NCBI GenBank assembly: GCA_964628765.1
Contig: CAZVMT010000001.1
Location: 1-54,998 of the forward strand
Direction of reading: 5' to 3'
DNA length: 54,998 nt
Origin: an uncultured Candidatus Bathyarchaeia archaeon
GTDB lineage: Archaea; Thermoproteota; Bathyarchaeia; TCS64
In this document: positions 1 through 54,998 of the stretch, in pieces
How positions within the stretch are numbered: position 1 is the stretch's first letter
Layout: every line of letters begins with the position of its first letter
Notes under the pieces: generated by a model
Database searches by the model: none
Told to the model about the DNA's origin: nothing
The model's input: the letters and a program-made list of their open reading frames with translations, nothing else
Translations under genes and position numbers: made by a program

Positions 1-55
1 AAGCCTGCCAGTGAGTGGAGATTTTACGTAGCGCACAACAGCGCGTCACCGAAGT
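1..55. repeat. Terminal overlap: 1-55 is identical to 54944-54998, indicating a circularly closed or terminally redundant contig with a unit length of 54943 bp
   Basis: The first and last 55 nt (aagcctgccagtgagtgg...gtcaccgaagt) are identical. Confidence 0.97.
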
Positions 56-165: not shown

Positions 166-218
166 CAGTAGTGCCCGCCCCGTCAAAACCAATATCACTA
201 CACCGGGGCGGTTTATAC

Positions 219-295
219 GGGCCTGATAGGTATCGACGGGCGTTAAGGCGCGCAAGCGCAGCGCTCGGAACCGGGTTCGACTCCCGGCAGGTCCA
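219..295 (+). ncRNA. tmRNA-like tRNA-like domain (TLD) without an mRNA-like domain, or an alanine-type tRNA mimic
   Basis: Acceptor GGGCCUG/CAGGUCC with G3:U70 and A73. The 5' GAU-AGGUAUCGACGGG and 3' UCGGAA-CCGGGUUCGACUCCCGG-CAGGUCCA closely resemble both ends of E. coli tmRNA as I recall it. The middle is only a short capped hairpin (247-265). No canonical D or anticodon arm is present. Confidence 0.6.
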
Positions 296-298
296 CTA

Positions 299-447
299 GG
301 GGCATCCGCGTAAATGGAGATACGCAGAAGTCGTGTGTAATGTAGGTGGAAACTCTTATGGTAAGAGTTTGGCGGTTAGTTGGCGTTCAATACGTCCCCA
401 CCCCCACACGATAAAACCGTCACCCGGTTCGAATCCGGGATGCCCCA
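299..447 (+). ncRNA. 149-nt tRNA-like RNA with canonical acceptor, D and T arms but an 86-nt multi-helix domain in place of the anticodon arm
   Basis: Acceptor GGGGCAU (299-305)/AUGCCCC (440-446) plus A447. D arm GCGU-AAAUGGAGAU-ACGC (308-325). T arm CCCGG-UUCGAAU-CCGGG (423-439). Internal helices are 331-337/405-411, 345-349/398-402, a 9-bp hairpin at 350-370 and a hairpin at 382-396. Confidence 0.55.
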
Positions 448-449
448 CA

Positions 450-473
450 AGCCCGACCGATTGCGGGCGGCAA
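450..473 (+). repeat. 24-nt direct repeat copy 1 (agcccgaccgattgcgggcggcaa) containing the hairpin GCCCG-N8-CGGGC
   Basis: Exact match to 649-672. Both copies are followed by a cggaagc box. Confidence 0.9.
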
Positions 474-648
474 TACGAAAGTTGCAACCGGAAGCCGAGT
501 AGTACCAGCCGCAAGCCGTGCGTACCGACGGCGATATACTGGCGGGCTGATGGCGAAAGCCGTGAGACGCTGCCGTAAGGTAAAACTACCAGTGTGTCAA
601 TCGTGGTATAGGGAACAAAGTGGCTTGCCGAAACGCCCCCTACTAACT

Positions 649-672
649 AGCCCGACCGATTGCGGGCGGCAA
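649..672 (+). repeat. 24-nt direct repeat copy 2
   Basis: Exact match to 450-473, 199 nt downstream, in an ORF-poor region. Confidence 0.9.
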
Positions 673-771
673 CACCCTGCACAATCGGAAGCTGTAAACT
701 TGGTTGTAAGAGTGCTCAGCAACCTCGGAATAAAAGCGGGCACCGGCTGGCCCACGATACGGGCCACCCAC

Positions 772-843
772 GCCAACCTAGCTCAATGGCAGAGCGGCGG
801 ACTTGTAATCCGCAGGTTGCCGGTTCAAGCCCGGCGGTTGGCT
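772..843 (+). tRNA. tRNA-Thr (anticodon UGU)
   Basis: Hand-folded cloverleaf. Acceptor GCCAACC/GGUUGGC. D stem GCUC/GAGC. Anticodon stem GCGGA/UCCGC with loop CUUGUAA. T arm GCCGG-UUCAAGC-CCGGC. Confidence 0.9.
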
Positions 844-936
844 TGTGTTGGCTCAAGACTGGCGGCACGTATCGCCCGTTTTGATACGCCGGGGCGCGGC
901 TCCTCCTCTCTGCGCCCCGGCTGCCCTGCTACCGTT

Positions 937-961
937 CGCCCGCACAGCGCGGGCGTTTTTT
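937..961 (+). terminator. Rho-independent terminator closing the RNA cluster
   Basis: CGCCCGC-acagc-GCGGGCG followed by T6. It is preceded by a 10-bp GC hairpin at 888-921. Confidence 0.8.
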
Positions 962-36565: not shown

Positions 36566-39500
36566 CCAAGTTACGCGGCCCAGGCATCATTGTAACCCCT
36601 CACCTCAATGTGACGCCTAAAGTGTCACTGGGCACGGCAACCGTTAGTGGGGGCACGGGAACAAGCATCGGCATTACCGGCGCGGCGCTGGTCGGTGGGT
36701 TGACAGTCGATGCGTTGCCGGTGGGCAGCATGGTCTGGGTTGGCACGGCGGCAGGCGGGCACGACGTATTTACCTCCTCAATCCGTAAGGTAGTCGCCAC
36801 AGTAACAGACGTCTTATACTGTCACGGCAGCACGGGCGGCGGTGATCCTGGCGTGGCTGTGCTGGAACCTGCCACAATTACAGCGGCGCAGAATGTCACG
36901 ATATTTGCCAACCTGCCGCTGTGGGCGCAGCTAAGCCGCGTCTACAACAACACGTTTTACAAGGCGTATGATGTCGCCTACACCGATCAGGGCAGTGACC
37001 CCGCGCCAGTCTGCAACATCGGCAAGTGGCGACGGTTGGAACTGACAATCGGCGGATCGGTTGACCTGACACTGACCGCGCTCACCAGCGTGACGTGGGG
37101 CGGCAAGGCCGTCGATAGTTGGGTATGGGACGCCAGGAACAGCGCCTACGCCACTATGACCGGCGTCACTGTTGTAGCCGGGGCGGGCACCAATACCGCT
37201 ACATTCCGGTTCACCGCTGCCGGGTTCTATATGCTATCCTGCACGATCACCGACGACGGGGCGGGCAATCACAGCCACATTGCCTATTGTTACGTGTGGG
37301 TGGTAGACGTCACCAATTACGACGACCTGCACGGCTGGCGCATTGAGAATGACCAGCAAGACCGGACCGGGCGACGCATGACCATTGTCATGGAAGGTGA
37401 CGTTGCCGAGTCGTCTGTGTTTCCCGGCGCGGCGTTTCTGTACAGCGAAACGTCCACTTACAACGGCAGCACGTTAACCGATGGATCAGTTGTGGACACC
37501 TTTGTCGGGTTCATTGATGAAGAAACCGGCATTCGTGAAATCGAAAATGGGCGCGTCCAATTTACGCTGATCAGCCCGTCCTATGTGCTCGACCAGCTGC
37601 CAATGGCATCGCAGTACATCGAGGAAACCGCCAGCCCTGCTGACTGGACGCAGGTGACAGGCGACCTCTCCAACCCGAACGGGATCGCGTGGTATGTGCT
37701 GGCGCATCACGCACCCAACATGCTTAAATTATTTGACTTTCGGGCCAGCCTGGGCGACACGCTGCGCAACCACATCTGGACGCTCAATAATTCGAGCGTG
37801 TGGGGCCAGCTCAAAGAAATCACGCCGGAACAAATCAATATTGGCTGCGCCAGCGAAGGCGCGTTATTTATTCGAGATGATCCGCTGATTGAGGATGACA
37901 CCTACCGGGCCGCGCTTGACGTGGCGATGACGTGGCTTGTGGGCGATCTGCGCGGCGACGATCCGCTCGAATACCGGAAGCGCTACCGACTCAAGGTTGG
38001 GCAGGTGGACGCTTACGCCTTCGCCTACAACGGATCGAACACGATCCCGCTTCGCGCCACCGCGCCCTGGATATTCCAGGTCGAGGGTACCGACAAGCGC
38101 GTCTATAACGGCCTTGTCACGCCATACACTACGGTGGGGGCGGACATTGCGCGGATGGCGGGCAACCTGTTCGCCCGCCTGAACAGCCCCTATCAGGACA
38201 TCGCCCTGCACGCCATGCGCAACTTTGACACGGCAGACCCGGCGCGTATGATCTGGCATAAACTCACGCTGGATGCCGCGTATGATCCACGCGGTACAGG
38301 CTGGACAGAACAGCGCGTGTTACCGCGCAGTGTTTCCCGGCGCTGGCAGCAGGTCAACGGTGAGTGGCTCAAAACGGTAGATGTTACCGTTGAGGTCGAG
38401 ACGGAGGGCAAGCCGGGGATATTTCGCCCGGTGGAATACAATCAGGATGGAGCATGGAACCCAATTTTTGACTGGCTCGATCAGGGCGACATCGTTGTGA
38501 CCGAACCCGATCCGCCCGCGCCTGAGAGTGGCCCGCTGTACCTGCTGGCTGCCGCTTACGGCGCAGCACAAATCGCCCGCGCCTATGACGGGGGTGGCTT
38601 CGAGGGCGAGACTCCCGTGTGGGAGAGCATCAGTACGGGACTCAGCGGCGCTATGCGCTGGATGACTTCCGATCCGTTTGAACCGAAACGATATTATGCA
38701 TGTGGCACGGCTGGCCTGTTTGTGTGCGAGGACATCACGGCTACAACGCCGCTGTGGGTGCAGATACTCGACACAAGTCGCTTGCCCTCGGAAACAGCCG
38801 CGCTTGGGTATCATCATGTCGTGACGACTCCACACCGGCAGGGCTGGATTGGGCTGTGCAACGGCTACGACTATGTTGATCTTTCTCTCGACGGCGGCAA
38901 CACGTGGCAGACGACATTCGGCGTCAATCCGATTGCCCTCACCGATTACCTGTGCAACTTACAAGTGTCGCCATTTTCTACCGAGTCAGACAACACGGTT
39001 TGGTTCCGGCGCGCGCGCGATCTGTTTCGTTCGACAGATTGGGGCCTGACCTGGACGGTGGGTGCTACTCAGGCCCAGATGGGCTTTACCGAGAACGGCG
39101 TGGGCATGGTGACTGTGCCGCTGTTCCGTCCTGATGGCACGATCAACCCCCCTGACGCGAATCAGCGGTTGTATGTTGTGTCCGGCTTGCGAACCATCTT
39201 TCCCGACAAGGGTGCCAACCTTGCGCTTTCGACGGCGCGGGGTGTGGTGGGTAGCTGGTCACAGTTACTCGCCCCAACCGGGTTGGGTGATTGGGGAGCG
39301 TGGCCGTCACCGGCGATCCGGTCACTGGTGACTTCGACGCAGAACGGTACGCATATCGGAATTGTGTTACGCCAAACGGCGGGCACATCATGGTTGACGC
39401 GGTTTGCCTACAGCACAAACAGCGGTGTAACGTGGACACTGAGCGCCAATCAACCGGCTTATCCAGCCGCCATCAACACTACCGTCGGCATGAACGGCTG

Positions 39501-51010: not shown

Positions 51011-51478
51011 TTAGTCCTCCGCCAACTCGAACCCCAACACCCACACCTCGACGCCGGAGGCAAAGCTACCCGCGCCGTGAATTTCGTCCCACGTCATAGC
51101 GAATTCTTCAACTGGTGTAACCGGGTTACACCATGTTTCCCCGCTTGGACCATGCGAAATTACATCATACCCGGTAAACCCCTCCGACACCGCACCCGCT
51201 TCGGTGATAGCATTCACTGGTTCACGCTTGATGCTGGTGAGTTTGAAGCGCGCGACCGCCTTTTGCCCGCGCCCTGGTTGCACCGCGTAGGTGTTGCCAA
51301 CGCGCCACTTGACCCCATTGTTTGAGTAAAAGTGGACGGCGCGTATCACTGGGCTATCTACGAATACGCCAAAGTTATTATACGATGACATCTCGGCCCA
51401 CTCGGTTTGTTTAACCGGGCGGCGCGTTTCCGACTTGGTACCATTGAGTACCCACTGATATGTTTTTGCGAATTGCAT
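51011..51478 (-). CDS. ASCH (PUA-like) domain protein
   Basis: LNGTKSETRR, RVGNTYAV and ITEAGAVSEGF pattern. Confidence 0.6.
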   Translation of the reverse strand: MQFAKTYQWVLNGTKSETRRPVKQTEWAEMSSYNNFGVFVDSPVIRAVHFYSNNGVKWRVGNTYAVQPGRGQKAVARFKLTSIKREPVNAITEAGAVSEGFTGYDVISHGPSGETWCNPVTPVEEFAMTWDEIHGAGSFASGVEVWVLGFELAED

Positions 51479-51987
51479 TAGCTTCCTCCCTGCTCTGACA
51501 GGTCAAGATTTTTATTATGCAGCACAACCGACCACACCGCGCCGCCGATTGTCTTGGCAGCAAACTGCCCGACCATGATCGGTACCAACAATGGCAACCC
51601 AAACGCCAGCGCCGGAAACACGACGCTGTCTACTGCTGCGCTGGCGATGTTCGATCCGTTGATCTTCACTAATCGCGCACGGCTGCCCATCGCGGCGTAC
51701 ACAACAGTATCGACCACCCCCGCCGCCGCAAACGCTGCGAACGAAGCGACAGCAATCGACGCTGCATTCCAATTAAGCGCCGCCGACAGGATCGACCCGG
51801 CACCGATCAACAGCGCCATATTGCGCCACAGGTCTCGCCCGCTCCACTGCTCATGCAGTCGGTCACGGGCAGTCAGGTCGAGGCCGATGAACAGCAGCGC
51901 GTTGATCACGCTCATGCCCGGACCGAATGCAGCGGTGGTCAAATTCGCGGCAACGATGGCCGCCAGATACATCACAATCAAGTACAT
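51478..51987 (-). CDS. yhhQ: YhhQ/DUF165-family queuosine-precursor (preQ0/preQ1) transporter
   Basis: GGGAGGA RBS before ATG 51987. Six hydrophobic helices. Segments FIGLDLTARD, AGVVDTVVY and SAAVDSVVFPALAF are co-linear with E. coli YhhQ as I recall it. Confidence 0.65.
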   Translation of the reverse strand: MYLIVMYLAAIVAANLTTAAFGPGMSVINALLFIGLDLTARDRLHEQWSGRDLWRNMALLIGAGSILSAALNWNAASIAVASFAAFAAAGVVDTVVYAAMGSRARLVKINGSNIASAAVDSVVFPALAFGLPLLVPIMVGQFAAKTIGGAVWSVVLHNKNLDLSEQGGS

Positions 51988-52831: not shown

Positions 52832-53396
52832 TGGCGGCGTCCTGTTCTGGCTGCGCTTCGAGTGCAGTGCGAGCGGTTTTCAGTAGTACGAAAAAACTCC
52901 GCCCGGCATAAATAATTGCGTCATGGAGCCGTTGCGGTTCTGGGTAGTTCGCAATTTCTTCCAGCGCCGTCCGGTACCGTGCTGCCTCCGCCCGCAAATG
53001 CCCGATCTCGACATTCTGCACCTCATATGCGGTATTAAAGTCGGCGACTTGCTGGTTAAGTGCCGCTCGGTAGCGCCTGGCTTCCGTCTCGGCGCGTTCG
53101 GCGCGGGCATGCGCGGTGTTGCGCTCGGTAGTTACCAGTTTTGCCAATGACATCCAGTCATCAGCGACAGTGAACGCTTCCAGTGTCTCGGCGGACATAT
53201 CGTCACACGTCTCCTGTAGGCTTTCGGTCTGCGTGCGGTATTCCTGCCGCCATTCCTCAACTTCGGCCACCTGCCGGGTCAACTCTGCCACCTGCTCCGC
53301 CAGCGCGTCATACGCCGCCAGCAACTCTGTCGCCTCATGGCTGCGCAGCCCGGACGCGGCCCGCTGGTGTAACTGTTCGAGTCTAATGTCATTCAT
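52824..53396 (-). CDS. Coiled-coil protein
   Basis: AAGGAG RBS before ATG 53396. Heptad-rich, Ala/Glu/Arg-rich sequence. Confidence 0.6.
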   Translation of the reverse strand: MNDIRLEQLHQRAASGLRSHEATELLAAYDALAEQVAELTRQVAEVEEWRQEYRTQTESLQETCDDMSAETLEAFTVADDWMSLAKLVTTERNTAHARAERAETEARRYRAALNQQVADFNTAYEVQNVEIGHLRAEAARYRTALEEIANYPEPQRLHDAIIYAGRSFFVLLKTARTALEAQPEQDAAND

Positions 53397-53445
53397 CAGT
53401 CCCTCACTCCTTGTTAAGCAAAGCGCCCCGCTGGTGATTGTGTGA

Positions 53446-53512
53446 TGTCTAGGCACACGAGTCCGGCGGAGCGCTATGGTCACAATCATACCTCGTTTAT
53501 CGTGCCTAGACA
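53446..53512. promoter_or_regulatory. Operator-like nested inverted repeats in the divergent control region
   Basis: tgtctaggcac (53446-53456) pairs with gtgcctagaca (53502-53512). gattgtg (53436-53442) pairs with cacaatc (53481-53487). Confidence 0.6.
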
Positions 53513-53513
53513 A
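53485..53513 (-). promoter_or_regulatory. Minus-strand promoter (TTGTCT-17-TATGAT) for the leftward operon
   Basis: Read from the reverse complement. The -35 overlaps the right operator half-site. Confidence 0.5.
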
Positions 53514-53539
53514 TATCAATATACACCACATGGCGCATA

Positions 53540-53568
53540 TTGTCAAACAAGCCGTGATAGTGTACACT
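53540..53568 (+). promoter_or_regulatory. Plus-strand promoter (TTGTCA-17-TACACT)
   Basis: Hexamers and spacing read directly. Confidence 0.5.
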
Positions 53569-53600
53569 GGTTTCAATATAACACACTAGGAGAATTCGAC

Positions 53601-53876
53601 GTGACCGACATCACCCTACCCCGCACGGTACCAATCGATCCACAGGTGCCGCCTGAATTCCAGCAGCAATACATTACCGTCACTGTGGCAGCGAAGGCCG
53701 CCGGTGTGTACAGGTCAACAATCAAGCGCCACCTGGGCAACGGCACACTCAGAGGCAAGAAAATGGCGACTCATTTATGGTACGTGAGTCGCACCAGTAA
53801 TGAAGGCGAATCGCCGCCCGGCCTCGATTGGTGGACGCCAGGAACATCAGGCAATCCAAACTGGATCAAAGAATAG
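53601..53876 (+). CDS. Small HTH DNA-binding protein (Cro/excisionase-like)
   Basis: AGGAG RBS before GTG 53601. Contains ITVTVAAKAAGVYRSTIKRHLGNGTLRG. Confidence 0.6.
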   Translation: MTDITLPRTVPIDPQVPPEFQQQYITVTVAAKAAGVYRSTIKRHLGNGTLRGKKMATHLWYVSRTSNEGESPPGLDWWTPGTSGNPNWIKE

Positions 53877-53899
53877 TACCAAGGTACCACGCCGCTCTC

Positions 53900-53928
53900 T
53901 TGACATTGTGGGCTAAAAAGCCTATGAT
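53900..53928 (+). promoter_or_regulatory. Near-consensus sigma70 promoter (TTGACA-17-TATGAT)
   Basis: Hexamers and spacing read directly. Confidence 0.7.
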
Positions 53929-54263
53929 GTAAGTATGAAGTGAGCGGAGCAATAGGAACTCACGAGAACCTTAACAACTGCACACAAGCATCCGCCACCG
54001 CCACAAAAACGCGCACCCAGGCCGGGCTACCGGCAAACAACACAGCGCGAACGGCACCGGCGACAAATGCCAGCGCAGCACATAAAAGGCAAAGCAACCA
54101 TCCACCGTAGTGAGAGCAGGACGGGGGAAAGCTGATGAGTATCCCGGCGAGGGATTACATGGAGATGTACATACATCGGCAAGGGGCATCAGGGCTTCGG
54201 CGCTGATGTTCCCACTGTACCCCAAAACAGGCGACCGGTGGAGAGATGGGACAAGCCTACCAA

Positions 54264-54280
54264 TTCCGCAATATGCGGAA
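54264..54280. promoter_or_regulatory. 17-bp palindromic motif, site 4 (perfect: TTCCGCA-ATA-TGCGGAA)
   Basis: ttccgcaatatgcggaa inside the candidate ncRNA. Confidence 0.6.
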
Positions 54281-54549
54281 ACCTGATCGGGAGAACCGAG
54301 GCGCTGGAAACAGCGACCGGGACCGGCAGACAGTAACGAATATTACGGGGACCGCAGCGGGCGATTTTTCTTCGAGGACTTGTCGCGGGGGCGCAACTCC
54401 CCCACCCCGTACAAGGATAGGCACTAAATACATCTGGGCTTTTCGCTGAAGGCGATCCCCCACATGATAATTACTGCCTCTCCGTACATGCATCGGCGGG
54501 CGTTTACCTATCGATTGATACTCGTCCGGATTCCCCACCGATGCAGACT

Positions 54550-54586
54550 GGCACCGCGCTACCCTGACGCGGTGCCTTTTCATTTA
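54550..54586 (+). terminator. Intrinsic terminator ending the long noncoding unit
   Basis: GGCACCGCG-9 nt-CGCGGTGCC followed by TTTTCATTT. Confidence 0.8.
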
Positions 54587-54599
54587 TAGAGGAGGCGAA

Positions 54600-54824
54600 A
54601 TGACAACAATGGAATTTGCTATTATCCTGTTTGGTATCGGCGGCTTTTTGTTCACCACCGTCTACTCAAACCACAACGAGCGGCTGGCGCAGCAGTATAT
54701 AAGGGAGCACCGCACATACAAAGGCCGTCCGCTCGACAACGACCTGATCGACATGTTGTGCGCCCAGGACGACGCCGACCGCGCCGACCGCGCCGCAATT
54801 GCGGAAATTTACGGAGCGTGGTAA
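54600..54824 (+). CDS. Small membrane protein (1 TM)
   Basis: GAGGAGG RBS. TM segment FAIILFGIGGFLFTTVY. Confidence 0.65.
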   Translation: MTTMEFAIILFGIGGFLFTTVYSNHNERLAQQYIREHRTYKGRPLDNDLIDMLCAQDDADRADRAAIAEIYGAW

Positions 54825-54998
54825 TGTACCTGAAACAACGTGAGGATCAGCGGCTCACCGAAGGCGCGGCGCTCGATCTGCTGCGTACCGTGCGGCGCTA
54901 TTGTTGGCACGCCGACATTTATTTAGCGGAGCGCACCGACGGCAAGCCTGCCAGTGAGTGGAGATTTTACGTAGCGCACAACAGCGCGTCACCGAAGT
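54824..54998 (+). CDS. 5' part of the 94-aa hypothetical protein that continues at 56..165 after removal of the overlap
   Basis: TAATG coupling to the upstream ORF. The frame is open to the window end and matches the frame of 1..165. Confidence 0.6.
   Translation, partial: MYLKQREDQRLTEGAALDLLRTVRRYCWHADIYLAERTDGKPASEWRFYVAHNSASPK
54944..54998. repeat. Second copy of the terminal overlap (same as 1-55)
   Basis: Identical to bases 1-55. Confidence 0.97.

What the first reader, a model, noticed from the sequence alone, without database searches (positions are those of the whole stretch)
219..295. Minimal tmRNA-like tRNA-like domain lacking any tag-template
What the sequence shows:
- The 77-nt element has an acceptor stem GGGCCUG/CAGGUCC carrying G3:U70 plus A73. 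G3:U70 is the AlaRS identity determinant.
- It has a T arm CCGGG-UUCGACU-CCCGG.
- Instead of a D arm it has the tmRNA-type segment GAU-AGGUAUCGACGGG.

Comparison with E. coli tmRNA as I recall it: the 5' end is GGGGCUGAUUCUGGAUUCGACGGG, and the 3' end UUUCGGACGCGGGUUCAACUCCCGCCAGCUCCA corresponds to UCGGAACCGGGUUCGACUCCCGGCAGGUCCA here. Where helix P2 would lead into pseudoknots and the tag ORF, a short capped hairpin (247-265) closes the molecule.

Inference: an alanine-chargeable, possibly SmpB-binding domain without an mRNA-like domain could compete with or modulate host trans-translation. It could also act as a decoy. I am not aware of this as a characterised phage function.
Basis: partly seen in the sequence, partly recalled or inferred. 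Interest (0 to 1): 0.7.

Follow-up and report, generated by a model that had tools for sequence, protein, structure and literature searches.

The report
Phage mini-tmRNA: tRNA-like domain only
This phage carries a 77-base gene for just the alanine-accepting, tRNA-like head of the bacterial ribosome-rescue RNA (tmRNA), with no tag-coding part. One such RNA was already known from a mycobacteriophage, and here the type turns out to be common in uncultured phages.

Summary
Window 219-295 (+) matches the Rfam tmRNA model end to end (58.4 bits, gathering score 47). About 308 central model positions (pseudoknots and tag ORF) are replaced by a 15-nt GNRA-capped hairpin.

It has a 7-bp acceptor stem with G3:U70 and A73, a tmRNA-type D-loop substitute (GGUAUCGAC), the P2a helix with tandem G·A pairs, and a TΨC arm. 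ARAGORN and the Rfam gathering-mode run both miss it.

It is not an ordinary tRNA, not a two-piece tmRNA and not an attP remnant. No integrase or SmpB was found in this circular 54.9-kb phage.

The kind is already known. Mycobacteriophage DS6A has a "TLD only" tmRNA, and a similar molecule inhibits tmRNA in E. coli (PMC4131195, PMC11915505).

I found 21 more such loci in IMG/VR, 3 in metagenomes and one unannotated in Stenotrophomonas phage Jojan60, often inside phage tRNA arrays. None appeared among 80 same-pattern loci from cellular genomes. Helices covary while G3:U70 stays invariant.

Most likely it is alanylated, binds host SmpB and EF-Tu, and diverts or blocks ssrA tagging. This is inferred, not shown.

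Verdict: a real feature and a new member of a known but poorly studied kind. Interest is moderate.

The parts
219..295 (+). TLD-only tmRNA-like RNA gene (77 nt, no encoded CCA; followed by CUA)
   Evidence: Rfam tmRNA 58.4 bits over model positions 1-374 with the central 308 positions deleted. Own model R1 scores it 74.6 bits. MFE fold is the same structure.
219..225 (+). Acceptor stem 5' strand GGGCCUG. Pairs with 288-294 (CAGGUCC). G221:U292 is G3:U70; A295 is the discriminator A73.
   Evidence: Sequence. Acceptor pairs are 99% paired across 17 phage elements, with G3:U70 in 17 of 17.
226..234 (+). D-loop substitute AUAGGUAUC with no D stem (tmRNA-type; conserved GG and UC)
   Evidence: Aligned to the tmRNA consensus AucuGGaUUC with one deletion.
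235..269 (+). P2a helix (GACGGGCGUU at 235-244 with AGCGCUCGGA at 260-269, including tandem G·A / A·G pairs), an AAG bulge (245-247) and the cap hairpin GCGC-GCAA-GCGC (248-259). This stands in place of the pseudoknots and tag ORF.
   Evidence: The P2a pairs covary across phage elements: 5 of 7 pairs change on both sides.
271..287 (+). T arm CCGGG-UUCGACU-CCCGG
   Evidence: The T stem is 100% paired, with 3 of 5 pairs covarying.
175..211 (+). Hairpin CCGCCCCG...CGGGGCGG followed by UUUAUAC. It lies between the stop codon of the upstream ORF (163-165) and the TLD 5' end, so it is the leader that RNase P would remove.
   Evidence: Fold of 160-300. ORF end taken from the gene calls on the identical Logan contig.
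299..447 (+). Second anticodon-less tRNA-like RNA, starting 3 nt after the TLD. Acceptor GGGGCAU/AUGCCCC, a D arm, a T arm (CCCGG-UUCGAAU-CCGGG), and the anticodon arm replaced by an 8-bp stem plus a branched insert of about 67 nt. Same transcription unit; role unknown.
   Evidence: No Rfam family and no relative found in IMG/VR.
772..843 (+). tRNA-Thr(UGU), the only canonical tRNA of the phage, in the same RNA cluster
   Evidence: ARAGORN. Rfam tRNA 69.5 bits.
848..961 (+). sRNA-like element with a CUCCUCCUCUC loop, plus the intrinsic terminator (937-961) that ends the RNA cluster
   Evidence: Weak ar14/CcsR1 matches below gathering score. Terminator scan. Fold z = -3.35.
53900..53928 (+). 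Near-consensus sigma-70-type promoter (TTGACA-17-TATGAT, 11 of 12). It is the candidate promoter for the unit made of small ORFs plus the RNA cluster; the genome is circular, so it lies upstream of 219.
   Evidence: Promoter scan. 55-nt terminal overlap.

Best explanation
Window 219-295 is a phage gene for a 'TLD-only' tmRNA. It is the tRNA-like domain of tmRNA with the pseudoknots and tag template deleted and helix P2 closed by a GNRA hairpin.

Proposed working (inferred):
1. It is transcribed early, in one unit with two small ORFs, a second tRNA-like RNA, tRNA-Thr and an sRNA.
2. It is cut out by RNase P at its 5' end. The 3' end is set by RNase P cleavage of the next tRNA-like RNA 3 nt downstream, followed by trimming and CCA addition.
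3. Host AlaRS charges it with alanine through G3:U70 and A73.
4. Host SmpB binds its D-loop substitute and P2a elbow, and EF-Tu binds it.
5. It then competes with host tmRNA for SmpB and for stalled ribosomes. Because it has no resume codon, no ssrA degradation tag can be added.

The net effect is that host trans-translation tagging is blocked or diverted during infection.

What is shown: the anatomy, the family relationship, recurrence in phages, and covariation. What is inferred: charging, SmpB binding and the effect on trans-translation.
For: - Family relationship: the Rfam tmRNA model matches both ends with the centre deleted, at 58.4 bits, above gathering score.
- TLD features: all TLD-specific features are present.
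- Precedent: DS6A's known 'TLD only' element has the same design. The literature reports that such a molecule strongly inhibits tmRNA in E. coli, perhaps by titrating SmpB (PMC4131195; PMC11915505).
- Engineered analogue: the TLD fragment co-crystallised with SmpB (5' 25 nt + UUCG + 3' 34 nt, per PMC3985003) has the same layout.
- Recurrence in viruses: 21 of 42 IMG/VR loci found with a pattern that specifies only the D-loop/P2 and T-loop motifs are complete 62-82-nt TLDs. So are 3 of 3 metagenome loci, and phage Jojan60 has one.
- Absence from cells: 0 of 80 loci from cellular genomes matching the same pattern are TLDs.
- Covariation: across 17 distinct elements, 96.5% of cells are paired, 12 of 19 pairs change on both sides, and 0 of 500 shuffles reach the observed values. 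G3:U70 never changes although acceptor pairs 4-7 vary freely. That argues for selection on alanylation.
- Host factors: no SmpB gene in this phage and no recurrent protein partner near 16 such loci, which fits action through host factors.
- Setting: the elements sit in or beside phage tRNA arrays.
Against: - Nothing here shows expression, processing, charging or SmpB binding.
- The inhibition experiment is second-hand. Mao et al. 2009 could not be read, and it used E. coli, not an infection.
- If pure SmpB titration were the mechanism, G3:U70 would not need to be conserved. [quoted passage not shown]
- G3:U70 invariance is partly built into my selection of IMG/VR sequences. However, no TLD-like hit lacking it appeared between 33 and 52 bits.
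- The closest relatives of this phage by helicase similarity carry no such element, so it is not essential to the lineage.
- The host is unknown.
Confidence: 0.5

Rival explanations
1. Tag-less ribosome rescue that helps the phage. Ala-TLD with SmpB and EF-Tu enters stalled ribosomes and accepts the nascent chain. The small peptidyl-TLD is then released or hydrolysed, which recycles ribosomes quickly without marking phage proteins for proteolysis. In this reading it is a helper rather than an inhibitor.
For: - G3:U70 and A73 are invariant while the rest of the acceptor stem covaries. This suggests that charging, and therefore ribosome entry, matters.
- Organellar CDS-less tmRNAs (jakobid mitochondria, Mallomonadaceae plastids) are conserved together with SmpB and are thought to still help with incomplete mRNAs (PMC11915505).
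- The elements sit within tRNA arrays that are generally thought to boost phage translation.
Against: - No release mechanism is known for a peptidyl-TLD without a stop codon. PMC3985003 argues that such RNAs cannot perform bacterial-type trans-translation.
- The reported effect of such a molecule in E. coli is inhibition.
- No ArfB- or Pth-like partner gene lies near the TLD-only loci.
Confidence: 0.25
2. An RNA-processing handle. The tRNA-like shape serves only as an RNase P / RNase Z cleavage signal that separates the upstream mRNA from the downstream RNAs, as in tRNA punctuation. It would have no role in trans-translation.
For: It lies directly between an ORF with a hairpin (ORF end at 165, hairpin 175-211) and another tRNA-like RNA 3 nt downstream, in a unit with a tRNA and a terminator.
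Against: A cleavage handle needs only an acceptor/T minihelix. It would not need the tmRNA-specific D-loop substitute, the tandem G·A P2a helix, or invariant G3:U70 and A73, which are kept across unrelated phages. In several loci the element stands alone with no adjacent tRNA.
Confidence: 0.08
3. A decaying remnant of a once full-length phage tmRNA gene, now without function.
For: About 2% of phage genomes carry full tmRNAs (PMC9004378). Near relatives of this phage lack the element.
Against: - The deletion is clean and leaves a perfectly closed, stable hairpin with every helix intact.
- The same architecture recurs in many lineages with compensatory changes.
- It scores higher against the tmRNA model than DS6A's element does (58.4 against 43.2 bits).
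Confidence: 0.05
4. An unusual tRNA-Ala, or an attP-type leftover of host ssrA.
For: ARAGORN at a relaxed threshold labels 219-296 as tRNA-Ala(AGC). Phages often integrate into ssrA (PMC10865867).
Against: - The forced tRNA fold has a mispaired D arm, a G·A mismatch in the anticodon stem and a 4-bp T stem, and ARAGORN at default settings rejects it.
- An attP core carries only the 3' part of ssrA, whereas both halves are present here and they pair.
- No integrase was found.
- No bacterial ssrA contains the 3' 23-mer.
Confidence: 0.03

Closest known systems
Mycobacteriophage DS6A 'TLD only' tmRNA (tmRNA Website; Hudson, Lau & Williams 2014, PMC4131195; Mao et al. 2009)
   Same: Phage-encoded and about 80 nt. 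It has a complete acceptor stem with G3:U70, a T arm, and a P2 helix closed by a short hairpin, with no tag ORF. It is detected by the same models (Rfam tmRNA and R1).
   Different: - DS6A's element has a diverged D-loop/P2 motif (UCGACCGCCG...CGGCGGCAC) and scores below the Rfam gathering score (43.2 bits). The window element keeps the consensus UCGACGGG...UCGGA and scores 58.4 bits.
- DS6A is a temperate actinophage with an integrase. This phage has none detected.
- The sequences are not alignable outside the conserved core.
Stenotrophomonas virus Jojan60 (ON045087.1), unannotated element found here
   Same: An 80-nt TLD-only element (R1 69 bits, Rfam tmRNA 61.8 bits) beside a tRNA cluster and replication genes.
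   Different: It comes from a cultured phage of a gammaproteobacterium. The element is annotated there as part of a hypothetical protein, and its P2 cap is different.
Engineered TLD fragments used for SmpB co-crystals (Thermus thermophilus, PDB 2CZJ, Bessho 2007; Aquifex aeolicus, Gutmann 2003), as described in PMC3985003 and PMC3022190
   Same: The same design: the 5' ~25 nt and 3' ~34 nt of tmRNA joined by a tetraloop. These constructs are known to bind SmpB. The T loop UUCGACU and the GGU-UCGACGGG motif match the Thermus sequence as I recall it.
   Different: The constructs are man-made, whereas the phage element is natural. It has a longer P2 (10 pairs plus a 4-bp cap) and a GCAA loop.
Organellar CDS-less tmRNAs (jakobid mitochondrial mt-tmRNA RF02544; ~65-bp Mallomonadaceae plastid tmRNAs; PMC11915505)
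   Same: A tmRNA reduced to its tRNA-like domain with no tag reading frame.
   Different: In organelles this is the cell's only tmRNA, the product of reductive evolution, working with an imported SmpB. In the phage it is an extra copy acting alongside the host's full tmRNA. There was no Rfam mt-tmRNA hit here.
Full-length phage tmRNAs (cluster C mycobacteriophages, cyanophages, Melnitz and others)
   Same: Phage-borne ssrA-derived genes, often next to tRNA genes.
   Different: Those retain a tag ORF and pseudoknots (ARAGORN tag peptides). This element has neither.

Membership tests
tmRNA (Rfam RF00023), tRNA-like domain | 7-bp acceptor stem with G3:U70 and discriminator A73 (AlaRS identity) | tested here: met
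   GGGCCUG/CAGGUCC plus A295. Aligned to model positions 1-7 and 364-370.
tmRNA (Rfam RF00023), tRNA-like domain | T arm with GUUCRANYC-type loop; D stem replaced by a loop carrying GG...UCGAC; P2a helix starting with tandem G·A pairs (GAC...GGA) | tested here: met
   CCGGG-UUCGACU-CCCGG; AUAGGUAUC; GACGGGCGUU/AGCGCUCGGA.
tmRNA (full, functional trans-translation RNA) | mRNA-like domain: resume codon, tag reading frame and stop codon | tested here: not met
   308 model positions are replaced by 15 nt. ARAGORN finds no tag peptide. The 25 nt at 245-269 form a closed hairpin.
tmRNA (full) | Pseudoknots PK1-PK4 flanking the tag region | tested here: not met
   There is no sequence between the two P2a strands other than a 4-bp GNRA hairpin.
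Two-piece (permuted) tmRNA (RF04321, RF01849-51) | Acceptor piece upstream of the coding piece, with the TLD formed in trans | tested here: not met
   No hit to any permuted model at E <= 10 in 1-1500, or at gathering score in the whole window. The same models readily detect permuted tmRNAs in other phages. The TLD here is closed in cis.
Phage TLD-only tmRNA (DS6A type) | Phage-encoded, under 100 nt, complete TLD, P2 closed by a hairpin, no tag ORF | tested here: met
   The window element (74.6 bits) and DS6A (52.5 bits) are the only hits in their genomes with model R1.
Phage TLD-only tmRNA (DS6A type) | Inhibits host tmRNA function / binds SmpB / is alanylated | not testable with these tools
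   Known only from the literature, for a similar molecule (PMC4131195, PMC11915505).
Canonical tRNA-Ala | D stem, 5-bp anticodon stem with a 7-nt loop and an NGC anticodon | tested here: not met
   ARAGORN at default settings makes no call. The call forced at -ps90 has mispaired D and anticodon stems. In Rfam's clan competition the tmRNA model was kept over any overlapping lower-scoring clan match, such as tRNA.
attP / ssrA integration remnant | Only the 3' part of host ssrA, identical to the host, next to an integrase | tested here: not met
   The 5' half is present and pairs with the 3' half. No integrase by PHROGs or Pfam. The 3' 23-mer is absent from bacterial ssrA in the GTDB representatives.

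The most novel reading that the evidence does not exclude
TLD-only tmRNAs may be a widespread, virus-specific class of translation-takeover RNA, not a DS6A oddity. Under this reading they are carried like an extra 'tRNA' in phage tRNA arrays and kept chargeable with alanine. In this phage the element would be the first gene of an early RNA operon that also encodes a second anticodon-less tRNA-like RNA with an 84-nt branched arm (299-447), a tRNA-Thr and an anti-Shine-Dalgarno-like sRNA. Together these would reprogramme host ribosome rescue and translation. The second RNA might be a new kind of tmRNA-like or SmpB-independent partner.
Probability: 0.2. Interest if true: 0.75.

Novelty: new member of a known kind. 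Interest (0 to 1): 0.5.

Why it matters
Trans-translation is the main bacterial ribosome-rescue pathway and a drug target. A natural, phage-made RNA that mimics only the SmpB- and AlaRS-binding head of tmRNA would be a ready-made inhibitor or re-router of that pathway. It would also be a clean tool for separating SmpB titration from ribosome entry.

The literature treats this as a single curiosity, phage DS6A. The searches here suggest it recurs in many uncultured phages, usually unannotated because ARAGORN and default Rfam filters miss it, and that it is absent from a cellular-genome control. That makes its role in infection directly testable, and it suggests phage annotation pipelines overlook a gene class.

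Tried and rejected
- Relatives of this phage. A helicase-based search of IMG/VR found none. A search of the 5.8-billion-protein database gave relatives at 55% identity or less. Their contigs (L058-L063) carry no TLD and no tRNA. Conservation of the whole RNA cluster, including element 2, therefore could not be tested.
- Host ssrA match. The exact 3' 23-mer of the TLD in the GTDB genomes hit only DPANN-archaeal, CPR and a few other bacterial MAG contigs and gave no host clue; these loci were not inspected further.
- Host identity. The only hint is that two helicase relatives lie in Chloroflexota MAG bins, which is weak.
- Element 2. Its 3' 25-mer has no match in IMG/VR.
- Leader region. An Rfam permissive scan of the 1.7 kb upstream (53300-54998) found nothing.
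- Partner proteins. Pfam on 52 window ORFs and on 123 ORFs within 3 kb of 16 TLD-only loci found no SmpB, ArfB, Pth, RtcB or other recurrent partner.
- False positives removed. L037 looked like a mini-TLD (6 of 7 acceptor pairs) but is the 3' part of a full tmRNA. Half-length blastn hits in S-CAM1, Salinibacter, Xanthomonas, Stenotrophomonas DLP_6, Acinetobacter and Tunturiibacter phages are full or permuted tmRNAs. Microbacterium phage Quenya remains ambiguous (R1 30.9 bits).
- Literature. Mao et al. 2009 is not held, so the inhibition result is cited second-hand.
- A GNRA-loop/receptor pairing between the TLD cap and the UAUGG...UAAG hairpin of element 2 was considered and dropped, because the geometry does not fit the 11-nt receptor.

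Full report
**1. What is there**

Window 219-295 (+) reads GGGCCUGAUAGGUAUCGACGGGCGUUAAGGCGCGCAAGCGCAGCGCUCGGAACCGGGUUCGACUCCCGGCAGGUCCA. Its parts are:
- Acceptor stem: 7 bp, 219-225 with 288-294, carrying G3:U70. The discriminator A73 is at 295.
- D-arm region: no D stem, only the loop AUAGGUAUC.
- P2a helix: 10 pairs, GACGGGCGUU (235-244) with AGCGCUCGGA (260-269). It opens with the tandem G·A / A·G pairs typical of tmRNA helix P2a.
- Cap: an AAG bulge, then the hairpin GCGC-GCAA-GCGC (248-259).
- T arm: CCGGG-UUCGACU-CCCGG (271-287).

The minimum-free-energy fold is exactly this structure (-38.9 kcal/mol, z = -3.4, 0 of 200 shuffles as good). The fold is kept when flanks are included.

**2. 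Is it tmRNA-like beyond resemblance?**

With permissive filters, the Rfam tmRNA model RF00023 aligns from position 1 to 374 at 58.4 bits (gathering score 47, E 6e-22). 308 central positions, which hold the pseudoknots and tag ORF, are replaced by 15 nt.
- No permuted-tmRNA model hits. The same models readily find permuted tmRNAs in other phages.
- ARAGORN at default settings calls only tRNA-Thr(UGU) at 772-843.
- At a relaxed threshold ARAGORN forces a tRNA-Ala(AGC) on 219-296. That fold has a mispaired D arm, a G·A mismatch in the anticodon stem and a 4-bp T stem, so I reject it.
- The Rfam gathering-mode scan of the whole window misses the element. This probably explains why such genes go unannotated.

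**3. Genome context**

- The window has a 55-nt terminal overlap, so it is a circular assembly of 54,943 bp. The same contig exists in Logan run SRR8556705.
- It is a tailed phage. It encodes a large terminase, a DnaD-like loader, a DnaB-like helicase and a head-tail adaptor.
- It has no close relative among GenBank phages or in IMG/VR.
- No integrase and no SmpB were found among the ORFs scanned.
- A near-consensus promoter lies at 53900-53928. It is followed by two small ORFs (54600-54821, and 54824 across the junction to 165) and then by an ORF-free RNA cluster.
- The RNA cluster contains, in order: a leader hairpin, the TLD (219-295), a second tRNA-like RNA 3 nt later (299-447), a pair of 30-nt repeats (447-476 and 646-675), tRNA-Thr (772-843), and an sRNA-like element with a CUCCUCCUCUC loop that ends in a strong terminator (848-961).
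- The gene encodes no CCA (the sequence runs ACUA), and neither does the tRNA-Thr gene.

**4. It is not an attP leftover**

- An attP core would contain only the 3' part of ssrA. Here both halves are present and pair with each other.
- There is no integrase.
- The 3' 23-mer is not found in any bacterial ssrA among 185,579 species representatives. The 12 exact matches lie in DPANN-archaeal, CPR and a few other bacterial MAG contigs.

**5. What is already known**

- Hudson, Lau and Williams (2014, PMC4131195) list 'Mycobacterium phage DS6A (TLD only)'. [quoted passage not shown] 2009).
- The 2025 tmRNA database paper repeats this. It adds ~65-bp CDS-less plastid tmRNAs and notes that mitochondrial tmRNAs lack a tag frame (PMC11915505).
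- I located the DS6A element at JN698994 28478-28560, between gp33 and gp34. It scores 43.2 bits against Rfam tmRNA, below the gathering score.
- The engineered Thermus TLD used for the SmpB co-crystal is the 5' 25 nt joined to the 3' 34 nt by a UUCG loop (PMC3985003). This is the same design as the phage gene.

The kind is therefore known, but as a single example.

**6. How common is it?**

The search pattern TCGACGGG-N15-45-GGGTTCGANTCCC specifies only the D-loop/P2 start and the T loop, at a spacing impossible for a full tmRNA.
- **IMG/VR.** The pattern gave 42 loci. Twenty-two passed a filter for at least 6 of 7 acceptor pairs plus G3:U70, all with A73. One of these, L037 (the only one with 6 of 7 pairs), is the 3' part of a full tmRNA. 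The remaining 21 loci, 14 distinct sequences of 62-82 nt, all have a perfect 7-bp acceptor stem.
- **Covariance model.** A model built from these sequences (R1) separates them cleanly. TLD-only elements score 52-82 bits, tRNAs score 33 bits or less, and nothing falls in between.
- **Covariation.** Across 17 distinct sequences including DS6A, 96.5% of cells are paired and 12 of 19 pairs change on both sides. No shuffle or slid control comes close. G3:U70 is 17 of 17, while acceptor pairs 4-7 show 3-4 pair types each. The G3:U70 count is partly a product of my filter. However, DS6A, Jojan60 and the metagenome hits were not filtered that way and also have it.
- **Metagenomes.** A narrower pattern in JGI metagenomes gave 3 of 3 TLD-only elements (74-79 bits). 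Two of the three lie inside arrays of 25-27 tRNAs, and the third, on a 1.3-kb contig, has two tRNA-Leu genes nearby.
- **GenBank phages.** Stenotrophomonas virus Jojan60 carries an unannotated element (R1 69 bits, Rfam 61.8 bits) next to four tRNAs.
- **Cellular-genome control.** The identical pattern in 596 Gb of cellular genomes returned at least 119 loci. None of the 80 fetched is a TLD-only element: the best R1 score is 39.6 bits, and none has 7 of 7 acceptor pairs with G3:U70.

In these tests the design is specific to viruses.

**7. Neighbours**

In other phages the element sits in or beside tRNA arrays (L001, L030, L032, L038, L194, L195, Jojan60) or stands alone. Pfam scans of 123 ORFs within 3 kb of 16 such loci show no recurrent partner: no SmpB, ArfB, Pth or RNA ligase. 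The RNA must therefore work with host factors.

**8. Mechanism**

Shown: the anatomy, the homology to the tmRNA TLD, recurrence in phages, and covariation.

From established knowledge:
- AlaRS recognises G3:U70 in acceptor minihelices.
- SmpB binds the TLD elbow.
- EF-Tu delivers Ala-TLD with SmpB to ribosomes with an empty A site (PMC3022190, PMC3985003).

Inferred: the phage RNA is charged, binds SmpB and EF-Tu, and competes with host tmRNA. Because it has no resume codon, no degradation tag can be added.

Whether the outcome is inhibition of rescue or tag-less rescue cannot be decided here.
- For inhibition: this is the reported E. coli result.
- For tag-less rescue: this is what is proposed for organellar CDS-less tmRNAs.
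- The invariance of G3:U70 argues that charging, and hence ribosome entry, matters. Simple SmpB sponging would not require it.

I give about 0.5 to 'blocks or diverts tagging' and 0.25 to 'tag-less rescue helper'. Small weights go to a pure RNase P processing handle, a dead remnant, an odd tRNA-Ala, or an attP remnant.

**9. The second tRNA-like RNA (299-447)**

It begins 3 nt after the TLD. Its features are:
- a perfect acceptor stem (GGGGCAU/AUGCCCC, with G3:C70) and A73;
- a D arm and a T arm;
- in place of the anticodon arm, an 8-bp stem leading into a branched insert of about 67 nt.

The tRNA-like fold is within 3 kcal/mol of the MFE (z = -4.0). No Rfam family matches it, and no relative was found. 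It is unexplained. I record it as a lead, not as part of the conclusion.

**10. Verdict**

This is a new, better-conserved member of the 'TLD-only phage tmRNA' kind previously represented by DS6A. The added value here is the evidence that the kind is recurrent and virus-specific, which makes it worth experimental attention. Interest is moderate (0.5).

Noticed in passing
window 299-447 (+): A second anticodon-less tRNA-like RNA begins 3 nt after the TLD. It has acceptor GGGGCAU/AUGCCCC (G3:C70), A73, a D arm and a T arm (CCCGG-UUCGAAU-CCGGG). The anticodon arm is replaced by an 8-bp stem plus a branched insert of about 67 nt. The fold has z = -4.0, and the cloverleaf-like fold is within 3 kcal/mol of the MFE. 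No Rfam family matches, ARAGORN calls it only at -ps80, and no relative was found in IMG/VR.
   Followed up: partly
window 447-476 and 646-675 (+): A 30-nt direct repeat (93% identical), ACAAGCCCGACCGATTGCGGGCGGCAATAC. Each copy can form a GCCCG...CGGGC hairpin. The first copy starts at the discriminator of the second tRNA-like RNA. Possibly processing or protein-binding sites.
   Followed up: no
window 848-961 (+): An sRNA-like element directly after tRNA-Thr. It has a long hairpin whose loop carries CUCCUCCUCUC (anti-Shine-Dalgarno-like). It gives weak sub-threshold Rfam matches to alphaproteobacterial ar14 (30 bits) and CcsR1 (23.7 bits), then a strong intrinsic terminator at 937-961.
   Followed up: partly
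window 1-55 and 54944-54998: An exact 55-nt terminal overlap, so the window is a circular (or circularly permuted) assembly of 54,943 bp. The ORF starting at 54824 continues across the junction and ends at 165.
   Followed up: yes
window 53930-54599 (+): An ORF-free leader of about 670 nt downstream of a near-consensus promoter (53900-53928). A divergent 11/12 promoter lies on the minus strand at 53546-53518. No Rfam match in this region.
   Followed up: partly
window 51478-51987 (-): An ORF with a Pfam Vut_1 domain (YhhQ-type queuosine-precursor transporter family). Two HNH/NUMOD4 homing-endonuclease-like ORFs occur elsewhere in the genome.
   Followed up: no
L066 1493-1572 (Stenotrophomonas virus Jojan60, ON045087.1, reverse strand about 37725-37804): An unannotated TLD-only tmRNA-like gene in a cultured phage. 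It partly overlaps a CDS annotated as a hypothetical protein, sits next to four tRNAs and lies upstream of DNA primase. This phage is a tractable system for experiments.
   Followed up: partly
L070 (Tunturiibacter phage Tunturi_4, PP885687.1): An 'RF-1 domain peptide chain release factor' gene (ArfB-like) lies directly upstream of a full permuted tmRNA. This phage therefore carries two ribosome-rescue components side by side.
   Followed up: no
L073 539-627 (Microbacterium phage Quenya, MT889365.1): An 89-nt unannotated element upstream of tRNA-Gln with the same acceptor stem as the window element (GGGCCUG/CAGGUCC, G3:U70). Its D-loop/P2 region is diverged (R1 30.9 bits, no Rfam hit). It may be a degenerate TLD-only RNA of the DS6A type.
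   Followed up: no
L064, L065 (GTDB genome contigs): The only cellular-genome relatives of the phage helicase lie in MAG bins of Chloroflexota (Dehalococcoidia and Anaerolineae). This is a weak hint about the host.
   Followed up: no
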